From: a virus
Taxonomy: Duplodnaviria > Heunggongvirae > Uroviricota > Caudoviricetes
Direction: 5' to 3' (one strand)
Virus record (IMG/VR): IMGVR_UViG_2802429225_000008
DNA: 38,441 bases
The translations under genes were made by a program, and so were the position numbers. Positions within the stretch are counted from its first letter, which is position 1, and each line of letters begins with the position of its first letter. Positions 1 through 12,774 of the stretch are shown here, in pieces. The notes under the pieces were generated by a model. That model ran no database searches. It saw only the letters and a list, made by a program, of their open reading frames with translations, and had not been told where the DNA came from.

Positions 1-723
1 TTACGGGGTAATGCCAACCGCTGCCGCCACTTTGTCGCCACTAGTGCTTTGTTTTTCGAATTCATCTAAGGCTCTTTCAACATCAGAAAGATACTCTTTG
101 AATGAGTTCAAGATCATGCTTAACGAGCCCCCCATAAATAGGACCTGTTTTCCATCTTTTTTAAAAAAATCAGGATATTTTTCTATAAGTTCAATAATGC
201 TTTTAATATTTTGCCCATCGTTTTCTAAGTATTTTGCATCATTATGCGCACAACTGTTTCTTAATTTTGTTATTTTTTTGATATTCGAATAGTGGGATGT
301 TGACTTCATCCCTATCATTTTTTTGATAAATAGATGGCTCCTCTCAAATCCACTTCCTTTGAGATCTGAAACATTTATAGGAGAATGATGTCTATTAGCA
401 AAGTTGTTACAGAATTTTTCTATTTCGTGCTCAAAAATTCCGAATATAGTTAAGAATACTGACCTGCGGATAATACTTGGGTAGTATTCTAAAAACATTT
501 CATCGAGATCTAGCGATGAGCTGGTGAGTCCCATGTAATGATCAATTGACTGGTATACACCATCTTCCGGAGATATTTCAATTATATATTCTTCAGGTCC
601 TTTGTCTTTATATTCTGCTATGCCCTTAGCGATTGATGATTCGCTATGAGTGATTAACGTCTCGATAATATCAAATGTTAAGGAGAAGTCGAATATTGGT
701 AATTGAAACAAAAACTTAACCAT
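1..723 (-). CDS. HEPN-motif protein (Rx4H: RNSCAH), AT-rich cargo gene between attL and int; C-terminus runs off the window
   Basis: ORF 1..756 on the minus strand contains ...KLRNSCAHND..., a canonical HEPN Rx4-6H motif. Likely start is the second ATG at 723 (AAGG 7 nt upstream); an ATG at 756 would overlap int by 23 nt. No stop codon before position 1. Confidence 0.55.
   Translation of the reverse strand: MVKFLFQLPIFDFSLTFDIIETLITHSESSIAKGIAEYKDKGPEEYIIEISPEDGVYQSIDHYMGLTSSSLDLDEMFLEYYPSIIRRSVFLTIFGIFEHEIEKFCNNFANRHHSPINVSDLKGSGFERSHLFIKKMIGMKSTSHYSNIKKITKLRNSCAHNDAKYLENDGQNIKSIIELIEKYPDFFKKDGKQVLFMGGSLSMILNSFKEYLSDVERALDEFEKQSTSGDKVAAAVGITP
19..42. repeat. attL: Putative attL core (cgctgccgccactttgtcgccact), direct repeat of 35585-35608
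   Basis: 22 of 24 positions identical to the sequence immediately after the ogr stop codon; lies beyond the int/cargo end of the prophage. Confidence 0.5.
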
Positions 724-733
724 GCTTGAACCT

Positions 734-1765
734 TTAAGAATCTGATTTAGTAACATCCAAAGTTGCTAGTGGATTGAAACGAAGAGCTGTCTCTAAGTGA
801 TCAGGTGATAGATGAGCATAACGCATAGTCATTTTTATGTCGTGATGTCCGAGGATTTTTTGCAAAGCAAGGATGTTTCCACCCGACATCATGAAATGCG
901 CCGCAAACGTATGACGCAGAACGTGTGTAAGTTGACCGCGAGGGAGCACGATAGACGTTTTTTCCATCACGGATAAAAATTGAAAATAGCAGTCTGTGAA
1001 GAAATTGAACCCATCAAGCGCCATGATCTCTTCATAAAGCTCTTTACTGATAGGGATGCTTCTGTTTTTCTTCCCCTTCGTTCTTACAAAGGTAATTCGG
1101 TATTTGGTCACCTGTGATCGGGTAAGGTTTATTGCTTCTCGCCAGCGTGCGCCTGTGCTTAAGCATATCTTGACTACCAGTGCCAGAATTGGGTCCTGAC
1201 GTTTGCAATCATCCAGCAGTTCAACAATCTGCTCATGGGTAAGCCATGCCATCTCTTTTTCTGCGATGGTGAATTTTCGCATGTTCTCCAGTGGGTTTGG
1301 ATACGACCATTCGCCCAGGCGGGATAGTTCGCTAAAAACACTACTTAGATAGCTTTGCTCTAGGTTAATGGTGACCGGGCTGGCCCCTTTCTTCCATTTC
1401 TCGCTGAAATAGATCTCACCTGTCAGTCGTTTATCTCGATAATGGGCAAACATTTTAGATGTGAGATCGGTTGCAAGGGGATTGCCCAGAGCGTCAACCA
1501 TCAGCAGCAATTTGTCATAGACATGCTGCCCAGCAGTCAGAGATTTACCATGTAGTTTGAACCATAGCTCAACCACGTCTTTCAGGGTTCGACGATCTAC
1601 TGATTCGCCCAGCCAGGGCTTTGCTTCGGTTTCTTCCATCGTGTGACGCTCAAAAGCCAGTGCTTCGCCTTTGGTGGCGAATTGTTTACGCACACGACGC
1701 CCACTACGTCCGGCGGGGTAACATTCGCAAAGCCATTTTCCTGTGGTGAGTTTTCGTACTGCCAT
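734..1765 (-). CDS. int: Tyrosine recombinase, P2-type phage integrase
   Basis: Translation carries the conserved C-terminal integrase box (...LTHVLRHTFAAHFMMSGGNILALQKILGHHDIKMTMRYAHL...) and resembles P2 Int throughout; start taken at the internal ATG 1763-1765 (MAVRKLTTGKW...). Confidence 0.9.
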   Translation of the reverse strand: MAVRKLTTGKWLCECYPAGRSGRRVRKQFATKGEALAFERHTMEETEAKPWLGESVDRRTLKDVVELWFKLHGKSLTAGQHVYDKLLLMVDALGNPLATDLTSKMFAHYRDKRLTGEIYFSEKWKKGASPVTINLEQSYLSSVFSELSRLGEWSYPNPLENMRKFTIAEKEMAWLTHEQIVELLDDCKRQDPILALVVKICLSTGARWREAINLTRSQVTKYRITFVRTKGKKNRSIPISKELYEEIMALDGFNFFTDCYFQFLSVMEKTSIVLPRGQLTHVLRHTFAAHFMMSGGNILALQKILGHHDIKMTMRYAHLSPDHLETALRFNPLATLDVTKSDS

Positions 1766-1951
1766 AAAAAATGCCCTCCAGTAGAGAGCATTTTTACTGT
1801 ATGTATAACCAGTGTCAATGTATGAAATCCTGCGACCATACATCTCACTGAAGCCATAATGAAGTTAGCTATTTTTTGCTATGTGAGTATGTGACTTTTG
1901 CGGTTAGCCTGCGGCTCATTGTTATATTAGGCGCAGATATAAAAGCAAAAT

Positions 1952-2143
1952 TTATCGCGAGTTTTTAGTACAGATTTTTTTTGATTTACTAATAGTTCCA
2001 TCATTGCAAACGAACTTTCCATCGGAGGTACAGTGAGAGACACCTCCCTTTTTCCCAGAACAAGGATAATTTTTAGCATAGGTAGTTAGTGGGTTTAATA
2101 ACAAAGAGCATGATAAAACCACAAAAAATACCTTACCAAGCAT
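1952..2143 (-). CDS. Small secreted Cys-rich peptide (63 aa; predicted signal peptide, 4 Cys in the mature part)
   Basis: Strong RBS (GGGAGGA) upstream of the ATG; hydrophobic N-terminus [23 protein letters not shown] followed by KNYPCSG...C...C...C; sits in AT-rich DNA between int and cI. Confidence 0.5.
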
Positions 2144-2158: not shown

Positions 2159-2815
2159 TTACCTAACGTACTTAATTGTTAAACTTATAATTTTCCCAAT
2201 TATTTCAACATCTTCTATCTTGCACTCGAAGGCTCTGTTTCCACCTTCAACGAAGATTCTTCCACCGGGTAAACGAGTAATGTCGCGGATTGTTATTTCG
2301 CCATCAATACTTATTACCCATTTACCATCACGTATATCATCAAATTCTTTATCACAAATAAATTCAGAATTGTTATCTGTGATGACAAAAGGTTTTTTAA
2401 ACGTAGAGGGTAGAAATCCCTTATCAAAAATATAAAAACCGTCTTCACGCAAGGCACCATCAGATAATACATATTTAGCAACTTCCATAGTATTTGTATT
2501 ACCTGAAGTTTGCTTTGAACCATTTCCAGTTGTGAGCCAATTAAGCGAGGTGCCCGTTTCAAGGGCGCACTGGATTACCCAATCTGCCGGAAAAATATCA
2601 CGCATATAGCGCGTTGCCATGGTGCTCTTAGAAACACCTAAATGATCACAGAGAGCCTGACGGGTACCGAACCCATATGCTTCAACTAAACGTTCTATGG
2701 CTTTCTTACCGCCGCTATTGAAATCCACAAGTCCTCCAAAGAAATCCAAAATTCGTTGGCAGATTCCAAAAGCGATCTTAAAGTTGAACCAGAAGTGTTC
2801 TTTTGGAGCCTTCAC
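2159..2815 (-). CDS. cI: CI-type immunity repressor (HTH), 186-like
   Basis: HTH-like segment GFGTRQALCDHLGVSKSTMATRYMRD; divergent from apl/cox and cII as in phage 186. True start may be an internal GTG after a GGAGG (giving ~189 aa) rather than the first ATG. Confidence 0.7.
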   Translation of the reverse strand: MKAPKEHFWFNFKIAFGICQRILDFFGGLVDFNSGGKKAIERLVEAYGFGTRQALCDHLGVSKSTMATRYMRDIFPADWVIQCALETGTSLNWLTTGNGSKQTSGNTNTMEVAKYVLSDGALREDGFYIFDKGFLPSTFKKPFVITDNNSEFICDKEFDDIRDGKWVISIDGEITIRDITRLPGGRIFVEGGNRAFECKIEDVEIIGKIISLTIKYVR

Positions 2816-5241: not shown

Positions 5242-6095
5242 GCACCATCCTGAAATGGGCGGGAAATAAAACCGCCATTATGTCCGAACTGAAAAAACAC
5301 CTTCCTGCTGGCCCGCGACTGGTTGAACCTTTCGCGGGTTCCTGTGCTGTGATGATGGAGACGGATTACCCCAGCTATCTGGTTGCGGATATTAATCCTG
5401 ATTTAATCAACCTCTATAAAAAGGTTGCCGCTGATTGTGAATCGTTTATATCTCGCGCCAGAGTTTTATTTGAGATCGCAAACAGGGAGGTGGCTTATTA
5501 CAACATAAGGCAGGAGTTTAATTACTCAACTGAAATTACTGATTTCATGAAAGCGGTATATTTCCTGTATCTCAATCGTCACGGTTACCGTGGTTTATGT
5601 CGCTATAACAAGAGCGGGCATTTCAACATTCCCTACGGTAATTATAAAAATCCGTATTTCCCTGAAAAAGAAATTCGCGCATTTGCAGAAAAAGCCCAGC
5701 GAGCAATGTTTATCTGCGCCAGCTTTGATGAAACGCTGGCGATGTTGAAGGCGGGGGATGTGGTGTATTGCGATCCGCCGTATGACGGTACGTTTTCCGG
5801 CTATCACACTGATGGTTTCACTGAAGATGACCAGTATCACCTGGCATCCGTTCTTGAACATCGGTCATCAGAAGGACATCCGGTCATTGTTTCTAACAGT
5901 GACACATCCCTGATCCGTTCGCTGTATCGCAATTTTACTCACCACTATATCAAGGTAAAACGCAGCATCGGTGTGGCAGCTGGCGAGGGTAAATCAGCAA
6001 CAGAAATCATTGCTGTTTCCGGGCCGCGCTGCTGGGTGGGATTTGATTATTCGCGTGGCGTGGATAGTTCTGCCGTGTACGGAGTGCGTGCATGA
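5238..6095 (+). CDS. dam: DNA adenine methyltransferase (Dam-like, D12 class)
   Basis: ILKWAGNK N-terminal motif, FAGS motif I and DPPY catalytic motif; start ATG 5238 after GGAGG. Confidence 0.85.
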
Positions 6096-8506
6096 GCCAT
6101 GCTGATATGAACAACTGCAGCGGCTTTAACGAGGCCGCCGCAGCATTCTCATGGAACAGCCCGAAAAAGGCGATTAACCCTTATCTGGACCCGGCGGAAG
6201 TTGCGCCGGTTTCTGCGCTTTCAAACCTGATCACTCTGTACGCTGCCGATAACAAGCAGGAACAACTGCGCCGCGAGGCACTGAGTGATCAGGTCTGGGA
6301 GCGTTATTTCTTTAATGAATCCCGTGATCCTGTCCAGCGCGAAATGGAGCAGGATAAGCTCATTAGCCGGGCAAAGCTGGTGCATGAGCAGCAGCGTTTT
6401 AATCCGGACATGGTCATACTGGCGGACGTTAACGCCCAGCCTTCCCATATCAGCAAGCCGCTGATGCAACGTATTGAATACTTCAGCAGCCTGGGCAGGC
6501 CAAAGGCTTATTCCCGCTATTTGCGTGAGACGATTAAACCATGTCTGGAACGACTGGAGCATGTACGCGACAGCCAGCTATCTGCATCTTTTCGTTTTAT
6601 GGCAAGCCATGAAGGGCTGGACGGCCTGCTGATCTTGCCTGAAATGAGTCAGGATCAGGTGAAGCGCCTGTCTACCCTTGTTGCCGCGCATATGAGCATG
6701 TGCCTTGATGCAGCTTGTGGTGATTTGTATGCCACCGATGACGTTAAGCCAGAAGAAATCCGCAAGACATGGGAAAGGGTGGCGGCGGAAACCCTGCGTC
6801 TGGATGTCATCCCTCCTGCGTTTGAGCAACTCCGCCGGAAAAGAAACCGCCGTAAACCCGTACCCTATGAACTCATTCCGGGTTCGCTGGCGCGTATGTT
6901 GTGCGCCGACTGGTGGTATCGGAAATTATGGAAGATGCGTTGCGAATGGCGGGAAGAGCAGTTGCGTGCTGTTTGCCTGGTCAGCAAAAAAGCATCTCCC
7001 TATGTCAGCTATGAAGCCGTGATGCATAAACGTGAGCAGCGCCGTAAGTCGCTGGAGTTTTTCCGTTCTCATGAACTGGTGAACGAAGACGGCGACACGC
7101 TGGATATGGAGGACGTGGTAAACGCCAGTAGTAGCAACCCGGCGCATCGCCGCAATGAGATGATGGCATGTGTTAAAGGTCTGGAGCTTATCGCGGAAAT
7201 GCGCGGTGACTGCGCCGTTTTCTACACCATCACCTGTCCGTCACGTTTCCATTCCACGCTAAATAACGGCAGGCCCAACCCGACTTGGACAAATGCGACG
7301 GTAAGACAAAGCAGTGATTATCTGGTCGGCATGTTTGCTGCATTTCGTAAGGCGATGTACAAAGCCGGATTGCGCTGGTATGGCGTGCGGGTGGCTGAGC
7401 CGCATCATGACGGTACAGTTCACTGGCACCTGTTGTGTTTTATGCGCAAAAAAGATCGCCGCGCCATTACTGCTTTGTTGCGTAAGTTTGCCATTCGTGA
7501 AGACCGCGAGGAGCTGGGTAATAACACAGGACCACGCTTTAAGTCTGAGCTGATAAACCCGCGCAAAGGTACACCAACAAGCTACATCGCGAAATACATC
7601 AGTAAGAACATTGACGGGCGTGGTCTGGCTGGCGAGATCAGCAAGGAAACGGGTAAATCTCTGCGTGATAACGCTGAATACGTTAATGCCTGGGCGTCTC
7701 TGCATCGTGTTCAGCAATTCCGCTTCTTTGGCATTCCGGGGCGTCAGGCTTACCGTGAACTGCGATTGCTGGCTGGTCAGGCGGCAAGGCAACAGGGTGA
7801 CAAAAAAGCAGGTGCGCCGGTACTGGATAACCCGCGCCTTGATGCCATTCTGGCTGCAGCTGATGCTGGTTGCTTTGCCACCTACATCATGAAGCAGGGC
7901 GGCGTACTGGTTCCCCGTAAATATCACCTCATCAGAACCGCTTATGAAATCAACGAAGAGCCGACCGCCTATGGCGATCACGGTATTCGTATTTATGGCA
8001 TCTGGTCACCCATTGCAGAGGGCAAGATCTGCACTCATGCAGTGAAGTGGAAAATGGTCCGTAAAGCCGTTGACGTTCAGGAGGCGGCAGCCGACCAGGG
8101 CGCTTGCGCCCCTTGGACTCGTGGCAATAACTGTCCCCTTGCTGAAAATTTGAACCAACAAGGGAAAGACAAATCAGCTGATGGGGATATCAGAACGGAC
8201 ATTACCCGCATGGATGACAAGGAGTTGCACGAATACCTGCACAGTATGAGCAAAAAAGAGCGCCGGGAACTGGCTGCAAGGTTACGCCTGGTGAAACCGA
8301 AACGGCGTAAAGACTACAAACAGCGAATTACAGACCATCAGCGACAGCAGCTCGTCTATGAACTGAAGTCCAGAGGATTTGATGGCAGCGAGAAAGAGGT
8401 CTATTTACTCCTTCGTGGCGGCAGTATTCCGTCAGGAGCAGGCCTGCGTATCTTCTATCGGAACCAGCGTTTGCAGGAAGATGATAAGTGGCGGAACCTG
8501 TATTAA
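6092..8506 (+). CDS. A: Replication initiation endonuclease (P2 gpA / 186 RepA family, rolling circle)
   Basis: 804-aa protein with the His-hydrophobic-His type block ([11 protein letters not shown]) and key-tyrosine region ([11 protein letters not shown]) typical of P2 A. Confidence 0.85.
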
Positions 8507-8600
8507 TTACGCGGGTTAACAATTCGTGCTCTTAATAATACCAGGCATTTCAGGCTGATGAACGTAAAAAAACGTTTTACATCAGTAAGATTATTATATA

Positions 8601-8616
8601 CTGTAAATATAAACAG
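8601..8616 (+). promoter_or_regulatory. LexA (SOS) box CTGTAAATATAAACAG
   Basis: Exact match to CTGT-N8-ACAG, 43 nt upstream of the ATG at 8659; a weaker half-site (TATACAGTA) follows at 8627-8636. Confidence 0.7.
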
Positions 8617-8658
8617 TGGTTATGTATACAGTATTGCTTTGGTGTCATAGGAGGAAAG

Positions 8659-8847
8659 ATGCAGGACTATTTTTTGGAGTCTTTGAAGCTCCAGCGCATT
8701 GATTTTTTTCTTAAGCTTGTAGCGGCTAGTGAGTGTAGTGATGAAGAGAAGGGGCTGGCTCTGCAGTGGGTATCTGAATTGACTGATGAACTCATGGCAA
8801 AAATCAGAACCCACGAATACAACCGCTCAATGGATGTCATCAGTTGA
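8659..8847 (+). CDS. Small protein of an SOS-controlled operon (Tum-like antirepressor candidate)
   Basis: Strong RBS AGGAGGA; immediately downstream of the LexA box; same position as tum in 186 (after A, before cos). Confidence 0.55.
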   Translation: MQDYFLESLKLQRIDFFLKLVAASECSDEEKGLALQWVSELTDELMAKIRTHEYNRSMDVIS

Positions 8848-8857
8848 GGTGACTTTT

Positions 8858-9091
8858 ATGCGCATTGAAATAATGATCGATAAAGAGCAGAAGATTAGCC
8901 AGTCTACCCTGGACGCCCTTGAATCCGAGCTTTACCGCAATCTGCGCCCCCTGTATCCCAAAACGGTAATTCGCATTCGCAAAGGTAGCTCTAACGGTGT
9001 GGAACTAACCGGACTGCAACTGGACGAAGAAAGAAAACAAGTGATGAAAATTATGCAGAAGGTGTGGGAAGACGACAGCTGGCTGCATTAA
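8858..9091 (+). CDS. DinI-family protein
   Basis: MRIEIMIDKEQKISQSTLDALESELYRNL...VWEDDSWL resembles E. coli DinI; RBS GAGGTGA before ATG 8858. Confidence 0.75.
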   Translation: MRIEIMIDKEQKISQSTLDALESELYRNLRPLYPKTVIRIRKGSSNGVELTGLQLDEERKQVMKIMQKVWEDDSWLH

Positions 9092-9226
9092 GAAACGTTG
9101 CTGGCGTCTGAACTTGCTTCTGGCGTCAGCAAGGTTGAACAACGAGCCCTTGCGAGGCGTTAGCTCTGTAGTGCATGTCTATGCCGCATGAGATCGCATG
9201 ATCGTTTGAGGATCGTTTTTGCTAAG

Positions 9227-9250
9227 GCCCGCCAGAACTGGCGGGCTTTT
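9227..9250 (+). terminator. Rho-independent terminator (gcccgccag-aac-tggcgggc-tttt)
   Basis: 8-bp GC-rich perfect stem, 3-nt loop and a T run, downstream of the tum/DinI operon. Confidence 0.6.
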
Positions 9251-9285
9251 GCGTAGATCATGCAGGTGCATGAAAACCACTACAT

Positions 9286-9304
9286 AAAGCGGGCAGGCGT
9301 GGCG
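9286..9304. other. cos: Candidate cos site (GGCGTGGCGGGGATACGAG)
   Basis: First 13 nt identical to the 186/P2 cohesive-end sequence as I recall it (GGCGTGGCGGGGAAAGCAT / GGCGAGGCGGGGAAAGCAC); lies between the early region and the packaging genes as in P2/186. Confidence 0.45.
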
Positions 9305-9505
9305 GGGATACGAGCGCGCGCTGAAAAGGTTTAGCTAAATTTTTGTCGATAGGTGGTTTTAGTTGTTATACAAAAGTGTCACTGGTTTTGTTTTGAGCAT
9401 TTGTGGTGCTAAAAATATTTTTTTTGGTTCAAAATTACCTTAAAAAGGTTTTTTTGGTGTATGATTGTTTGAAAAGTGGTTCGGTTTTGCCATAAGGGTG
9501 GTTAG

Positions 9506-10588
9506 ATGATAAACGTTACAAACGAAATGCTCATTGATGTTGTCAGTGATGCTCTTACCGGGAAGAGGGAAAGTCTCCTCATGCGGTTGCGGATTATGGC
9601 AAAAAAACTAAAAAAAGAATCTCCTGAATTAGCGGGTAAATTAGAAGATTTACTTATTAATACAGGTGGCGCAATTGCAGTCGAAAGGGCTAATCCAGTT
9701 GTTCCTAAAATAACACCTGTTGATGCGGATACAAGACAAAAGCTGCTAGTTGAAACATATCCTGTGGTCATTGATGTTGAACCTGTTTGGCCAACAAAAA
9801 CTGATGTTCAACTGAATCGATTTGTGGCTGAGTGGGAAATGAAAGAACGCCTTTATAAAGAAGGGTTGCATCCGTCCAAATCTCTTCTTATGGGAGGACC
9901 ACCCGGTGTGGGGAAGACTTTGGCTGCAAAGTGGCTCGCTTTTAAACTCGATATGCCATTGTTAACATTAGATCTCGCAAGTGTAATGAGTAGCTACTTG
10001 GGGAAAACGGGTAATAATATTAAGGCAGTCCTCAATTATGCTTCGTCATTCCCTTGTGTACTGCTTCTTGACGAATTTGATGCGATTGCTAAAAAAAGGG
10101 ATGATGCAACAGATGTTGGAGAACTAAAAAGATTAGTTACAGTATTATTGCAAGCAATTGATGAATGGCCAAATACGTCTGTTCTTATAGCAGCAACTAA
10201 CCATGCGGAGCTGCTTGATCCTGCTGCATGGAGAAGATTCGATCGAGTTATTGATTTTGAATATCCAACACAAGACCTAATGAGAAGATATCTCTGTTCT
10301 AAAAATATTGGAGATAGCTTATCGTACTATATTGCTACAAAACTCGAAAAAGTTTCATATGCAGTTCTTGAGAGAGCTATAAATCAAGCTAAAAGAAATG
10401 CCATTATAGAAGATATTCCTTTAAGTTCAGCTTTAATTGATGAGTTGTTAGATGGCGTGTCACTTGATGATGTTATAAAAAACATGTCAAACAACAATGT
10501 ATCACAAAGAAAAATCGCTTTAGATTTGGGGATTTCAAGGTCACAAGTACGTAAGGTTTTGACGGTTGAGGATGAAGACAATGAATGA
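9506..10588 (+). CDS. AAA+ ATPase (IetA-like) of an ATPase/subtilase pair
   Basis: Walker A GPPGVGKT, Walker B LLLDEFD, sensor-1 ATNH, then AAWRRFD; AT-rich by eye; 8-nt overlap with the downstream protease gene. Confidence 0.8.
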   Translation: MINVTNEMLIDVVSDALTGKRESLLMRLRIMAKKLKKESPELAGKLEDLLINTGGAIAVERANPVVPKITPVDADTRQKLLVETYPVVIDVEPVWPTKTDVQLNRFVAEWEMKERLYKEGLHPSKSLLMGGPPGVGKTLAAKWLAFKLDMPLLTLDLASVMSSYLGKTGNNIKAVLNYASSFPCVLLLDEFDAIAKKRDDATDVGELKRLVTVLLQAIDEWPNTSVLIAATNHAELLDPAAWRRFDRVIDFEYPTQDLMRRYLCSKNIGDSLSYYIATKLEKVSYAVLERAINQAKRNAIIEDIPLSSALIDELLDGVSLDDVIKNMSNNNVSQRKIALDLGISRSQVRKVLTVEDEDNE

Positions 10589-11690
10589 TAAAAATATGCT
10601 TCTTGGCTATGGTGAAACACTAACTAACCCTGTTAAACTTAACAGAGGTGGAGGTGAAAAGAATAAACCTTACTCTTATTCAGAAAATAAACCAGTGATA
10701 TCTGCTCAACTGGAAGAGTTGATTGAGGAAATTAATACCCTTCCATTGTTAGCAATGCCTGAAGGTAAGGCTGTAGCAAAATTTGTTTTGCATCCGGCAT
10801 TCTTAGCAAAAAGTTATTTTCCAGTAAGTCTTTTTGAGCGATTTTCCCTAGAAAGCATAGGCAGTAAGGCTGTAAAAGTAAAACCTAGAAAAGATATTAA
10901 AAAAAGAGGGCGAAAAGAGGAATACACTACAGCGTGTATTTATGTTTCTGGCAAAAAAGAAAGTTTTCAATCATTCTTAGACTCTGTAAATCAAGATACC
11001 CTAACGAAAGGGCAGCAAAATGATTTTGTCACCTTAGAAAATATTTCAATACTGGAAGTTTCAGATAAAGTAAAAACGATTAATAGCAATGAAGTTATGA
11101 GTATTGAGGTCGCCTTACATACTCCTGATACAATTTCCTCTATTGTCGATAGTTTTGAAGTTTTTGCTTCGCAAAATGGTGCTGTTATAGATAAGGCAAG
11201 AAGTATAAAGGTTAAGGGGCTAACCTTTATGCCTATTAAGGCTAGTAAAGATGTAGCTTTAAAAGTTGCAGAGTTTTCATTTCTCAGGACTTTGAGAGAA
11301 CTTCCTGAATTAAGGCTAAGTGAGCCTGTTATATCACGTTCTGTGATTCAAACATCTAACCTTAGTTTACCATCTGAAGGAGCGGTAAACCCACACATAA
11401 AGGTTGCCATATTCGATGGTGGATTGGGGATCGATGATTTCAATCCTTGGGTAACAGAGTACACTTTCAACGGTAATGCTAGTACTAATGCAAAACTTCT
11501 TTCTCATGGACAGGATGTCACCTCTACTGTGTTATTTGGTGTTCTTGGCTCTGAAACGGAAAAATTAAGTGTTCCTTATTGTAATATTGACCATTATCGT
11601 GTACTGGATTCTAATGTTAATAACTCAGATGTCGATCTTTTTGACGTTCTGATCCGTATTAAAAGTGTATTAGAACAAAAAAAAATATGA
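10581..11690 (+). CDS. S8 subtilisin-like serine protease (IetS-like), N-terminal part; interrupted by a frameshift at the A9 run 11677-11685
   Basis: Contains the catalytic Asp motif (VAIFDGG) and His motif (SHGQDVTS); ends ...LEQKKI* directly after a run of nine A. Start ATG 10581 preferred (GAGGA 9 nt upstream). Confidence 0.7.
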   Translation: MNDKNMLLGYGETLTNPVKLNRGGGEKNKPYSYSENKPVISAQLEELIEEINTLPLLAMPEGKAVAKFVLHPAFLAKSYFPVSLFERFSLESIGSKAVKVKPRKDIKKRGRKEEYTTACIYVSGKKESFQSFLDSVNQDTLTKGQQNDFVTLENISILEVSDKVKTINSNEVMSIEVALHTPDTISSIVDSFEVFASQNGAVIDKARSIKVKGLTFMPIKASKDVALKVAEFSFLRTLRELPELRLSEPVISRSVIQTSNLSLPSEGAVNPHIKVAIFDGGLGIDDFNPWVTEYTFNGNASTNAKLLSHGQDVTSTVLFGVLGSETEKLSVPYCNIDHYRVLDSNVNNSDVDLFDVLIRIKSVLEQKKI

Positions 11691-11739
11691 TTATATCAAT
11701 CTGAGCTTAGGACCTAGATTACCTGTTGATGACGATGAC

Positions 11740-12774
11740 GTGCATGTGTGGACCTCAACTCTTGAGGAGATACTTGCATCAGGAGAAACACTTTGTACTG
11801 TCGCGGTTGGAAATGATGGTCAGCTGCCTGCCAAGTTAAATCGAATTCAACCACCTGCTGATTTAGTTAATGGTCTGTCAGTAGGTGCAGCAACCTCTTT
11901 ATCTGATAGTTGGGAAAGATGTTCTTACAGTTGTATTGGTCCTGGACGAAGCCCTGGCTTTGTGAAGCCTGATGGAGTTGCATTTGGAGGACATTCTGAT
12001 GAGCCATTCCAGGTATACAGCCCTATGGTTAATGGTCTTGCCCGCACTGCGGGGACTAGCTTTTCAGCTCCATTAGTCCTGAGGCAAGCAATCGCGTTAA
12101 GTGCTTCTCTAAATTACAACATTACACCACTTACGGCTAAAGCTCTGCTTATACATCATGCGGAGAGCAATAATATCAATCGTGCTGAAGTTGGTTGGGG
12201 ACGATTTCCTCATGATCTTAGTGAAGTAATATTTTGTGATGATGATGAAGTTAAAGTTATATATCAAGGTACTTTAAAACCATCACAACACATGCGAGCA
12301 CCTATTCCGTTTCCAGATGTACCTATGCGTGGATGTGTAAATTTAAGAGCGACATTCTGCTTTTCCAGTCCTGTAGATGCGGAACATCCTTTGAATTATA
12401 CAAGAAGCGGTCTAGAAGTAACCATGAGAAAAGGTGTTTCAGATAGTTCCGGGTTAACGTTTCCTCTTTTTAATCTAAAAAATGTTTATGCAGATGAAAA
12501 TGAGCAACGTGTTGATGCACATAAATGGGAGACTACGTTAAGAAGTGAACACAAATTTAAACCGAATGAGCTGACAAACCCATGCTTTGATATTATCTAC
12601 TATGGTAGAGACTGTGGTATGCCTATTGATGTTGACGAGTTAGAAGAACTACCATATGTTCTTGTCGTGACTTTATCTGCTGAAGAAATGCCGGATTTAT
12701 ATAACCTAATTAGGCAGAAATATCAAACCTTACAGCCTATCCAAGTTCAACAGCAAATTATGTTACGTACTTAA
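11740..12774 (+). CDS. S8 subtilisin-like serine protease (IetS-like), C-terminal part in the +1 frame
   Basis: The frame is open from 11674 and reads KKKYDYINLSLGP...CTVAVGNDG...GTSFSAP, i.e. the subtilase INLSLG block, oxyanion-hole Asn and catalytic Ser. Continuous with the upstream ORF if one A is removed. Confidence 0.7.
   Translation: MHVWTSTLEEILASGETLCTVAVGNDGQLPAKLNRIQPPADLVNGLSVGAATSLSDSWERCSYSCIGPGRSPGFVKPDGVAFGGHSDEPFQVYSPMVNGLARTAGTSFSAPLVLRQAIALSASLNYNITPLTAKALLIHHAESNNINRAEVGWGRFPHDLSEVIFCDDDEVKVIYQGTLKPSQHMRAPIPFPDVPMRGCVNLRATFCFSSPVDAEHPLNYTRSGLEVTMRKGVSDSSGLTFPLFNLKNVYADENEQRVDAHKWETTLRSEHKFKPNELTNPCFDIIYYGRDCGMPIDVDELEELPYVLVVTLSAEEMPDLYNLIRQKYQTLQPIQVQQQIMLRT

What the first reader, a model, noticed from the sequence alone, without database searches (positions are those of the whole stretch)
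8581..9091. SOS-controlled Tum/DinI-like module downstream of the replication gene
A perfect LexA box (CTGTAAATATAAACAG, 8601-8616) precedes a two-gene operon: a 62-aa protein with a strong RBS and a DinI-family protein (8858-9091). Phage 186 is induced by the LexA-controlled antirepressor Tum, whose C-terminal part is DinI-like as I recall. Here the arrangement is split into two ORFs, which suggests a variant SOS-induction module.
Basis: partly seen in the sequence, partly recalled or inferred. Interest (0 to 1): 0.5.

Follow-up and report, generated by a model that had tools for sequence, protein, structure and literature searches.

The report
LexA-controlled tum–dinI prophage induction operon
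This is the known DNA-damage switch of a Fels-2/DuoHS-type P2-family prophage of E. coli: a LexA-repressed promoter drives a small Tum-type antirepressor gene and a DinI-like gene. A version that is all but identical has already been shown genetically to be needed for prophage induction.

Summary
A strong LexA box (core 8601-8616) lies 40 nt upstream of a 62-aa ORF (8659-8847, AGGAGG RBS). A 77-aa DinI-family ORF (8858-9091) follows, just downstream of replication gene A.

- PSP3 carries annotated tumA/tumB genes, and Lemire et al. 2011 state that Fels-2 and PSP3 have tum split by a stop codon.
- The window is a close relative of prophage DuoHS of E. coli HS: ORF1 differs by 1 of 62 residues, DinI is identical, and box 1 and both promoter hexamers are identical.
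- In DuoHS, the published Δtum primers fuse exactly this ORF's ATG to its TGA and leave dinI intact. Δtum and lexA(Ind-) both abolish mitomycin-C-induced lysis.
- ORF1 has no BLASTP match to 186 Tum, but profile comparison places it on Tum residues 3-44 (hhalign 95%, E 3e-8). DinI aligns from Tum residue 71, the internal start annotated in 186.
- The module occurs in about 1,150 of 5,426 complete E. coli genomes.

Side observations of modest interest:
- a conserved second, overlapping LexA box at the tum promoter;
- a second LexA-gated promoter in front of int;
- a near-invariant TumA paired with CI repressors conserved only in their N-terminal domain.

Verdict: real, correctly read, already known.

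The parts
6092..8506 (+). Replication gene A (context; the module lies immediately downstream of it)
   Evidence: Pfam Phage_GPA, E 1.5e-127. Same position as gene A in 186, PSP3, Fels-2 and DuoHS.
8576..8604 (+). Putative promoter p_tum (equivalent of 186 p95). The -35 is TTTACA at 8576-8581. The -10 is either TATACT at 8597-8602 (15-nt spacer) or TACTGT at 8599-8604 (17-nt spacer, the hexamer annotated for p95).
   Evidence: Read from the sequence. TTTACA and TATACTGT are conserved in SopEphi, YpMLG42 and KpST437phi4.1 while the spacer between them diverges. The 186 annotation places the p95 -10 on TACTGT. The simple consensus scan did not call a promoter here. No transcript start is known.
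8599..8618 (.). LexA box 1 (core CTGT-N8-ACAG at 8601-8616), overlapping the -10 region
   Evidence: Best-scoring site in the window at 23.4 bits. Identical in DuoHS and Fels-2 and conserved in all relatives.
8614..8633 (.). LexA box 2, degenerate (core GTGGTTATGTATACAG at 8616-8631), overlapping the core of box 1 by 1 nt
   Evidence: 16.0 bits, third best in the window. Only 0.1 sites of 16 bits or more are expected per shuffled window. Present at the same 15-nt offset in DuoHS, Fels-2, SopEphi, YpMLG42 and KpST437phi4.1 at 14.7-18.9 bits. Absent in 186, PSP3 and the ESSI2 types. LexA binding is inferred.
8649..8654 (+). Shine-Dalgarno AGGAGG of ORF1
   Evidence: Conserved.
8659..8847 (+). 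tumA-type antirepressor gene (62 aa; orthologue of DuoHS tum ECHS_RS04495 and Fels-2 STM2728)
   Evidence: 98.4% identical to ECHS_RS04495. The published delta-tum primers map onto its ATG and TGA. Assigned to phrog_698. hhalign to 186 Tum residues 3-44, 95%. Predicted helical hairpin, pLDDT 88.
8858..9091 (+). dinI-like gene (77 aa; the tumB equivalent)
   Evidence: Pfam DinI, E 6.6e-23. 41% identical to 186 Tum residues 71-145. Matches E. coli DinI 1GHH at E 2.7e-6. 100% identical to ECHS_RS04500.
9098..9132 (+). 11-bp stem-loop just after dinI, in the position of 186 t95a. No U tract follows, so its function is uncertain.
   Evidence: RNA fold. Position of t95a in 186.
9224..9250 (+). Probable intrinsic terminator ending the SOS operon: GC-rich 11-bp stem followed by UUUU
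   Evidence: RNA fold. It lies in the block 9173-9321 that is conserved in Fels-2, DuoHS and 813R9, just before the variable cargo.
2159..2728 (-). 186-type CI immunity repressor, the inferred target of TumA
   Evidence: Pfam Phage_CI_repr (E 2.8e-31) plus Phage_CI_C (E 2.7e-28). 88% identical to DuoHS CI.
1790..1818 (-). Putative second SOS-controlled promoter, P_int: TTGACA-17-AAAAAT, with a LexA box (1795-1814) filling the spacer, 25 nt upstream of the int start codon (1765)
   Evidence: Promoter scan, 10 of 12. Weight-matrix score 23.0 bits. Conserved in DuoHS, 4LV2017 and ESSI2_ev129, where it is a perfect CTGT-N8-ACAG.

Best explanation
The region is the SOS operon of a Fels-2/DuoHS-type P2-family prophage, the counterpart of p95-tum in coliphage 186. 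In the lysogen, host LexA occupies an operator that overlaps the -10 region of the promoter. The operator is a strong box, probably reinforced by an overlapping weaker one, and it keeps the operon silent. DNA damage activates RecA, LexA cleaves itself and the operon is transcribed.

The first product is a 62-aa acidic helical hairpin homologous to the N-terminal half of 186 Tum. It acts as an antirepressor: it binds the non-cleavable 186-type CI repressor and stops it holding the lytic promoter, so the prophage switches to lytic growth. I infer that it contacts CI's conserved N-terminal DNA-binding domain.

The second product is a free-standing DinI homologue, equivalent to the C-terminal half of Tum, which 186 also makes separately from an internal start. 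It is accessory. It probably tunes RecA-filament activity and thereby the size or duration of the SOS signal.

Shown by published genetics on a 98-100% identical module: tum and cleavable LexA are both required for induction. Inferred: LexA binding to these particular boxes, direct TumA-CI binding, the CI domain contacted, and the role of DinI.
For: Anatomy and conservation
- Box, RBS and the two ORFs are as described.
- A LexA box is found at the same position in 10 phages despite divergent flanks.

Homology to 186 Tum
- DinI ORF: 41% identity to Tum residues 71-145. Residue 71 is the annotated internal GTG start of the truncated Tum product.
- ORF1 family profile against Tum: 95% probability, E 3.2e-8, residues 3-44 on 3-44.
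- Cross-hits between phrog_698, phrog_8554 and phrog_1993 link ORF1, the Tum N-terminal half and PSP3 TumA.
- The target is present: a 186-type CI with the Phage_CI_repr and Phage_CI_C domains.

Published function
- 186: p95 is LexA-regulated and Tum inhibits or sequesters CI (PMC7708051; annotation).
- PSP3 and Fels-2 have split tum, and in PSP3 the upstream gene carries the antirepressor activity (PMC3121763).
- DuoHS: delta-tum and lexA(Ind-) abolish mitomycin-C lysis (PMC12055606). The primers show that the deletion removes exactly the ORF1 orthologue and leaves dinI.
- The window and DuoHS share 98.4% TumA identity, 100% DinI identity, and identical box 1 and promoter hexamers.
- Fels-2 STM2727, listed in that paper's LexA-regulon table and grouped with STM2726 and STM2728 in one operon (I take it to be the dinI homologue from its position in that numbering; this was not checked), is induced 5.5- to 14.8-fold by the mutagen MX (PMC2225428).

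DinI is dispensable for the core switch
- ESSI2-type phages carry the tumA homologue behind a LexA box with no dinI.

CI domain contacted
- TumA identity tracks identity in the CI N-terminal domain: 100% TumA goes with 74-83% NTD, 41-49% TumA with 58-69%, and remote TumA with 38-51%. The CI C-terminal domain stays at 23-40% throughout.
Against: - Nothing was measured on this exact sequence.
- The promoter hexamers are imperfect and the simple scan called no promoter here.
- ORF1 has no BLASTP similarity to 186 Tum or PSP3 TumA. Its hhalign match to PSP3 TumA alone is weak (E 0.003, probability 10%).
- Direct TumA-CI binding has been shown biochemically only for 186 Tum, not for the Fels-2 clade.
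- The correlation between TumA and the CI N-terminal domain rests on 12 non-independent phages. It could simply reflect overall relatedness together with a generally better-conserved HTH domain.
- The role of DinI is unproven. Non-polar dinI deletions in Gifsy prophages had no measurable effect on induction.
Confidence: 0.9

Rival explanations
1. The DinI-like protein, not the 62-aa protein, is the effector of induction, for example by acting on RecA filaments. ORF1 would then be an unrelated small protein or a leader peptide.
For: DinI is the only product with a Pfam domain. ORF1 has no Pfam, PADLOC or PDB match and no BLASTP similarity to Tum.
Against: The DuoHS delta-tum allele removes only the ORF1 orthologue and keeps dinI and its RBS, yet induction is lost. 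ESSI2-type phages have the ORF1 homologue behind a LexA box with no dinI. Profile comparisons tie ORF1 to the N-terminal half of Tum. In PSP3 the upstream gene carries the antirepressor activity.
Confidence: 0.04
2. TumA triggers induction without touching CI. It might act on another lysogeny factor (CII or Apl) or on a host protein. Its homology to the Tum N-terminal half would then reflect a shared fold rather than a shared target.
For: No biochemical data exist for the Fels-2 clade. The DuoHS paper says only 'inhibiting pro-lysogenic regulators'. An identical TumA co-occurs with CI proteins only 39-56% identical overall. That is unexpected for a specific binder.
Against: The CI N-terminal domains of those phages remain 71-83% identical, with long invariant stretches, so a common binding surface is available. 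Homology to Tum is colinear and significant. 186 Tum acts directly on CI.
Confidence: 0.06
3. The LexA box is a chance or vestigial match, and the operon is expressed from read-through of the early lytic transcript after gene A rather than under SOS control.
For: The core pattern alone occurs twice in the window against 0.46 expected. No consensus promoter was called.
Against: The 20-mer score is far above the shuffles. The box is conserved at this position in ten phages, while neighbouring non-coding DNA diverges among the Fels-2-clade relatives and is unalignable with 186 and PSP3. lexA(Ind-) blocks DuoHS induction. Fels-2 STM2727, listed in the LexA regulon and taken here to be the dinI homologue, is mutagen-induced.
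Confidence: 0.01

Closest known systems
DuoHS prophage of E. coli HS: tum (ECHS_RS04495) and the DinI-like gene ECHS_RS04500 (Phollow paper, PMC12055606)
   Same: Same prophage type at the same chromosomal site. TumA differs by 1 of 62 residues, DinI is 100% identical, LexA box 1 and both promoter hexamers are identical, and CI is 88% identical. A genetic requirement for tum and for cleavable LexA has been demonstrated.
   Different: DuoHS keeps an orf97-like gene after dinI, which the window lacks. The downstream cargo also differs: the window carries IetA and IetS.
Fels-2 STM2728 / STM2727 (annotated as STM2726.1 in the phage record)
   Same: TumA is 98.4% identical. The module is 97% identical at the DNA level with the same LexA box. 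Described as a split tum.
   Different: Fels-2 CI is only 39% identical overall, 71% in the N-terminal domain. An orf97-like gene is present. int is adjacent to cI, so there is no room for a separate LexA-gated int promoter.
Coliphage 186 p95-tum SOS operon
   Same: Same genomic position after gene A, a LexA operator over the -10, and an antirepressor domain followed by a DinI-like domain. The target is a 186-type CI.
   Different: In 186 the two domains are fused in one 146-aa ORF, and the DinI part is also made from internal starts. There is a single, stronger LexA box (27 bits). The N-terminal domain is only remotely similar (19% identity in the hhalign match).
PSP3 tumA / tumB
   Same: Split two-gene arrangement behind a LexA box. 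tumB is a DinI homologue and tumA is a 60-aa protein.
   Different: TumA belongs to a different PHROG (phrog_1993 against phrog_698). It links to ORF1 only weakly or through profiles. The gap between the genes is 3 nt rather than 10 nt.
Gifsy-1/2/3 LexA-controlled dinI-antirepressor (gfoA/gftA/gfhA)-irsA operons
   Same: A LexA-repressed promoter drives a DinI homologue plus a small antirepressor that inactivates a non-cleavable repressor.
   Different: The gene order is reversed, with dinI first. These are lambdoid phages with unrelated repressors. Homology of the antirepressors to ORF1 was not tested here.
E. coli DinI (PDB 1GHH)
   Same: Same family and length, with an alignment over the full length.
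   Different: The phage copy is diverged (E 2.7e-6), and its C-terminal helix carries more basic residues (read from the sequence). RecA binding is untested.

Membership tests
186-type SOS operon (LexA-controlled Tum antirepressor module of P2/186-like phages) | A LexA operator overlapping the promoter of the operon | tested here: met
   Met at the sequence level only. The box at 8599-8618 scores 23.4 bits, overlaps the candidate -10 hexamers and is conserved in 10 phages. Actual LexA binding cannot be tested with these tools. lexA(Ind-) blocks induction of the near-identical DuoHS.
186-type SOS operon (LexA-controlled Tum antirepressor module of P2/186-like phages) | Location directly downstream of replication gene A in a P2/186-like genome | tested here: met
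   gpA ends at 8506 and the operon starts around 8576. The order is the same in 186, PSP3, Fels-2 and DuoHS.
186-type SOS operon (LexA-controlled Tum antirepressor module of P2/186-like phages) | A product homologous to the N-terminal (antirepressor) part of Tum | tested here: met
   hhalign of A2 against 186 Tum: 95.1%, E 3.2e-8, residues 3-44 on 3-44. The N-terminal half of 186 Tum hits phrog_698 at E 5.9e-6, and ORF1 hits phrog_1993 at E 0.0022. Pairwise BLASTP is negative.
186-type SOS operon (LexA-controlled Tum antirepressor module of P2/186-like phages) | A non-cleavable 186-type CI repressor as the target | tested here: met
   CI at 2159-2728 carries Phage_CI_repr and Phage_CI_C.
186-type SOS operon (LexA-controlled Tum antirepressor module of P2/186-like phages) | The product binds CI and prevents operator binding (antirepressor activity) | not testable with these tools
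   There is only indirect support. DuoHS delta-tum is non-inducible. TumA identity co-varies with the CI N-terminal domain.
Split tumA/tumB arrangement (PSP3, Fels-2) | The antirepressor and DinI-like parts are encoded by two adjacent ORFs separated by a stop codon | tested here: met
   TGA at 8845-8847, a 10-nt gap, then ATG at 8858. PSP3 annotation. Statement in the literature.
DinI family (Pfam PF06183) | A full-length match to the DinI model above the gathering threshold | tested here: met
   81.3 bits against a cut-off of 24.2, covering model positions 1-63 of 63. Matches 1GHH.
DinI family (Pfam PF06183) | Binds RecA filaments and modulates co-protease activity | not testable with these tools
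The 186 record says that the truncated Tum (DinI part) 'modulates SOS induction'.

The most novel reading that the evidence does not exclude
The Fels-2/DuoHS-clade TumA may be a broad-specificity antirepressor aimed at the conserved N-terminal DNA-binding domain of 186-type CI repressors that are otherwise highly divergent (23-40% identity in the C-terminal domain). If so, one SOS-induced TumA could cross-induce different co-resident P2-family prophages. In this phage lineage the SOS input would also be wired in at two further points not described in the papers I could read: a double, overlapping LexA operator at p_tum (colicin-like tight repression) and a separate LexA-gated promoter for int.
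Probability: 0.35. Interest if true: 0.35.

Novelty: already known. Interest (0 to 1): 0.13.

Why it matters
The module decides when a very common family of E. coli, Salmonella and Klebsiella prophages leaves the chromosome after DNA damage, for instance after quinolones or mitomycin C. This region matches about a fifth of complete E. coli genomes. The module also sits next to a defence-gene hotspot, so it matters for annotation: the 62-aa gene is still labelled "hypothetical" or "levan regulatory protein" in nearly every record and should be called tumA.

As a discovery it adds nothing to what 186, PSP3, Fels-2 and DuoHS have already established. The side observations (a double operator, a LexA-gated int, and an invariant TumA with variable CI) are cheap to test. 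They would refine the model rather than overturn it.

Tried and rejected
- Pairwise BLASTP of ORF1 against 186 Tum and PSP3 TumA, and of PSP3 TumA against 186 Tum, gave no alignment. These peptides are too short and too diverged, so profile methods were needed.
- ORF1 has no match in Pfam or PADLOC, and its family profile has none among PDB sequences.
- Foldseek of the ORF1 model against the PDB returned only generic helical hairpins, all with E > 2. This is uninformative.
- The consensus promoter scan found no promoter at p_tum. I assigned the hexamers by eye and by analogy with the annotated 186 p95, so they remain tentative.
- The scan flagged a terminator-like hairpin at 8836-8853 that spans the ORF1 stop codon and the dinI RBS. 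I considered it as a translational-coupling or attenuation element. The stem is not conserved in SopEphi, YpMLG42 or KpST437phi4.1, so I dropped it.
- The second CTGT-N8-ACAG match, at 10630-10645 inside the cargo gene, scores only 7.3 bits and is taken as chance.
- The library-wide search with ORF1 (66 representatives at E ≤ 0.001) found only short stand-alone proteins. None is fused to DinI. The fused form therefore seems confined to the 186-type N-terminal domain.
- Bunny, Liu and Roth 2002, the primary Fels-2 lexA/tum paper, could not be retrieved. It is cited only through PMC3121763.
- A literature search for a LexA-controlled int in P2-like phages found nothing.

Full report
**1. What is in the sequence**

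The window is a P2/186-family (Peduoviridae) prophage with bacterial flank. The 804-aa ORF at 6092-8506 is replication protein A (Pfam Phage_GPA, E 1.5e-127). Several features follow it:
- an A/T-rich non-coding stretch containing CTGTAAATATAAACAG at 8601-8616;
- AGGAGG at 8649-8654;
- a 62-aa ORF at 8659-8847;
- a 10-nt gap;
- a 77-aa ORF at 8858-9091, a full-length DinI-family protein (PF06183, 81 bits against a cut-off of 24).

The DinI ORF aligns from its first residue with E. coli DinI (1GHH). This supports the 8858 start over the overlapping 101-aa reading from 8786.

**2. Is the LexA box more than chance?**

The 8-base core pattern alone is not compelling: there are 2 matches in the window against 0.46 expected. 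I therefore scored 20-mers with a weight matrix built from E. coli SOS boxes recalled from memory, which is a caveat.
- The site 8599-8618 scores 23.4 bits, within the range of strong chromosomal boxes and the best in the window.
- In 30 shuffled windows the best site averaged 12.3 bits, and the highest seen was 17.0.
- A box lies 18-48 nt upstream of the first gene of the module in all ten relatives examined: DuoHS, Fels-2, SopEphi, a Yersinia phage, a Klebsiella phage, two ESSI2-type phages, 186 and PSP3.
- Among the Fels-2-clade relatives the spacer between the conserved TTTACA and TATACTGT has diverged freely.

The promoter hexamers are imperfect: TTTACA, then either TATACT after 15 nt or TACTGT after 17 nt. 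TACTGT is the hexamer annotated as the -10 of 186 p95. The generic scan did not call a promoter, so the exact promoter remains an inference.

**3. Identity of the two genes**

The DinI ORF is 41% identical to residues 71-145 of 186 Tum. Residue 71 is the GTG at which the 186 record annotates a separately translated "truncated Tum". The split point in the window therefore coincides with a natural domain and translation boundary in 186.

ORF1 has no Pfam hit and no BLASTP similarity to 186 Tum or PSP3 TumA. Profile methods connect them:
- ORF1 belongs to phrog_698.
- The first 70 residues of 186 Tum hit phrog_698 (E 5.9e-6), phrog_8554 and phrog_1993.
- PSP3 TumA is in phrog_1993, which ORF1 also hits (E 0.0022).
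- A 30-sequence alignment of diverse ORF1 relatives from a library-wide search aligns to 186 Tum with 95% probability, E 3.2e-8, residues 3-44 on 3-44.
- The shared motif is visible by eye: QRI-x-L-x2-RLVA-x3-C-x3-DK-x-LAL-x-W-x2-EL in the ORF1 family against ERVEMIARLTAEGTCQERDREIALNLIAEI in 186.

AlphaFold predicts a two-helix hairpin (helices 2-23 and 28-61, pLDDT 88). It has no informative structural neighbour.

**4. The target and the published function**

The window encodes a 186-type CI (2159-2728, minus strand; Phage_CI_repr plus Phage_CI_C), a CII (Phage_CP76) and an Apl/Cox-position ORF. In 186, LexA represses p95, and Tum inhibits or sequesters CI.

Lemire et al. (PMC3121763) state that Fels-2 and PSP3 have tum split by a stop codon. 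[quoted passage not shown] The PSP3 record annotates tumA and tumB.

The most direct evidence comes from DuoHS. The window is a close relative of the DuoHS prophage of E. coli HS and lies at the same chromosomal site.
- TumA is 61/62 identical and DinI 77/77.
- LexA box 1 and both promoter hexamers are identical.
- CI is 88% identical.

In the Phollow study (PMC12055606), an in-frame Δtum (ECHS_RS04495) and a lexA(Ind-) allele each abolish mitomycin-C-induced lysis and virion production. The published primers fuse ...ATAGGAGGAAAG-ATG directly to TGA-GGTGACTTTTATGCGCATTG. These sequences map onto window 8639-8661 and 8845-8867. The deleted gene is therefore exactly the ORF1 orthologue, and dinI with its RBS was left intact.

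In Salmonella, Fels-2 STM2727 is listed in the LexA regulon, grouped in one operon with STM2726 and STM2728, and induced 5.5- to 14.8-fold by the mutagen MX. I take STM2727 to be the dinI homologue from its position in that numbering; I did not check this against the genome record.

**5. Mechanism and how far it is shown**

Shown, on a 98-100% identical module: cleavable LexA and TumA are both necessary for induction.

Inferred: LexA binds the operator at 8599-8633, and TumA binds CI and releases it from its operators. DinI is accessory, and two observations support this. ESSI2-type phages carry the tumA homologue behind a LexA box with no dinI at all. Non-polar dinI deletions in Gifsy prophages had no effect on induction.

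On the CI surface contacted: TumA is 98-100% identical in phages whose CI proteins are only 39-56% identical to the window's. Aligning those CI proteins shows that the N-terminal HTH domain is 71-83% identical, with long invariant runs. The C-terminal oligomerisation domain is only 23-40% identical. Across 12 phages TumA identity falls in step with identity in the N-terminal domain and not the C-terminal one. This fits an acidic hairpin (net charge about -5) that blocks the DNA-binding domain. The sample is small and phylogenetically non-independent, so this is a hypothesis.

**6. Extent of the module**

Homology with Fels-2, DuoHS and 813R9 runs from gene A to 9321. Fels-2, DuoHS and 186 carry an orf97-like gene between dinI and the terminator. 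In the window, 9090-9172 replaces it.

An 11-bp stem-loop (9098-9132) sits where 186 has t95a. A GC-rich hairpin followed by UUUU (9224-9250) is the probable operon terminator. Beyond 9321 lies variable cargo.

**7. Comparison with what is known, and novelty**

The features that define the 186-type SOS operon and could be tested by sequence are all met. Antirepressor and RecA-binding activities cannot be tested here. The split tumA/tumB form is already described (PSP3, Fels-2), and this very allele has been functionally dissected (DuoHS).

This region matches 1,146 of 5,426 complete E. coli genomes, and 735 of them cover at least 80% of it. It is nearly always annotated "hypothetical protein" plus "DinI-like family protein".

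The finding is therefore real and correctly interpreted, but already known, and interest is low. The residual novelty lies in the details listed under side observations: a conserved overlapping second LexA box in the Fels-2 clade, a LexA box filling the spacer of a strong int promoter, and the invariant-TumA/variable-CI pattern.

Noticed in passing
window 1790-1818 (- strand), upstream of int (734-1765, -): A near-consensus promoter, TTGACA-17-AAAAAT, has its spacer filled by a LexA box (1795-1814, TACTGTATGTATAACCAGTG on the + strand, 23.0 bits). This is the second-best site in the window. It lies 25 nt upstream of the int start codon. It is identical in DuoHS, conserved in Klebsiella phage 4LV2017, and a perfect CTGT-N8-ACAG in the more distant ESSI2_ev129, where the flanks diverge. 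This suggests SOS-gated integrase expression, as is known for integron intI (from my own knowledge). Fels-2 has int adjacent to cI and no room for such a promoter. I found no paper describing this.
   Followed up: partly
window 8614-8633: A second, degenerate LexA box has a core (GTGGTTATGTATACAG, 8616-8631) that overlaps the core of box 1 by 1 nt. It scores 16 bits and is conserved at the same offset throughout the Fels-2 clade (14.7-18.9 bits). It is absent from 186, PSP3 and the ESSI2 types, which have a single stronger box. The layout resembles the overlapping double SOS boxes of colicin operators (my recollection) and would give tighter repression of tum.
   Followed up: partly
window 8659-8847 against CI at 2159-2728; loci L012-L023: TumA is 98-100% identical in phages whose CI repressors are only 39-56% identical overall. 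The conservation of CI is confined to the N-terminal HTH domain (71-83%), against 23-40% in the C-terminal domain. This suggests a broad-specificity antirepressor and possible cross-induction between co-resident P2-family prophages.
   Followed up: partly
window 9506-12774: The variable cargo after the SOS operon is an IetAS-type defence system. IetA is an AAA ATPase at 9506-10588 (PADLOC IetA, E 6.7e-84). IetS appears to be split into two ORFs. The first (10566-11690) matches IetS model positions 25-349. The second (11740-12774) matches positions 383-634 and carries the Peptidase_S8 C-terminal half. This could be a disrupted gene or a sequencing error. Relatives carry other cargo at this position.
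   Followed up: partly
window 9090-9172, compared with L002 3591-4433, L024 20050-20892 and L003 5605-6336: The orf97-like gene that follows tum/dinI in 186, Fels-2 and DuoHS is absent from the window. In 186, plasmid expression of orf97 blocks 186 infection. Only about 80 nt with a stem-loop remain between dinI and the conserved terminator block.
   Followed up: partly
L007 1501-1713 and L008 about 1501-1700: ESSI2-type Peduoviridae carry a tumA homologue (41-49% identical to ORF1) behind a strong LexA box, with no dinI gene downstream. In Cronobacter phage ESSI-2 this ORF is not annotated at all.
   Followed up: partly
window 1-756 (- strand): A 251-aa ORF lies at the int-proximal end of the prophage. 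It has only a weak HEPN_RiboL-PSP hit (E 0.005, below the cut-off). This stretch has no counterpart in DuoHS, since the megablast match to HS starts at window 762. It may be another accessory or defence gene at the attachment-site end.
   Followed up: no
window 1952-2143 (- strand): A 63-aa ORF with an apparent N-terminal signal peptide sits between cI and int. A counterpart is annotated in DuoHS (ECHS_RS23290, hypothetical). It separates int from the cI transcript, which may be why int has its own promoter here.
   Followed up: no
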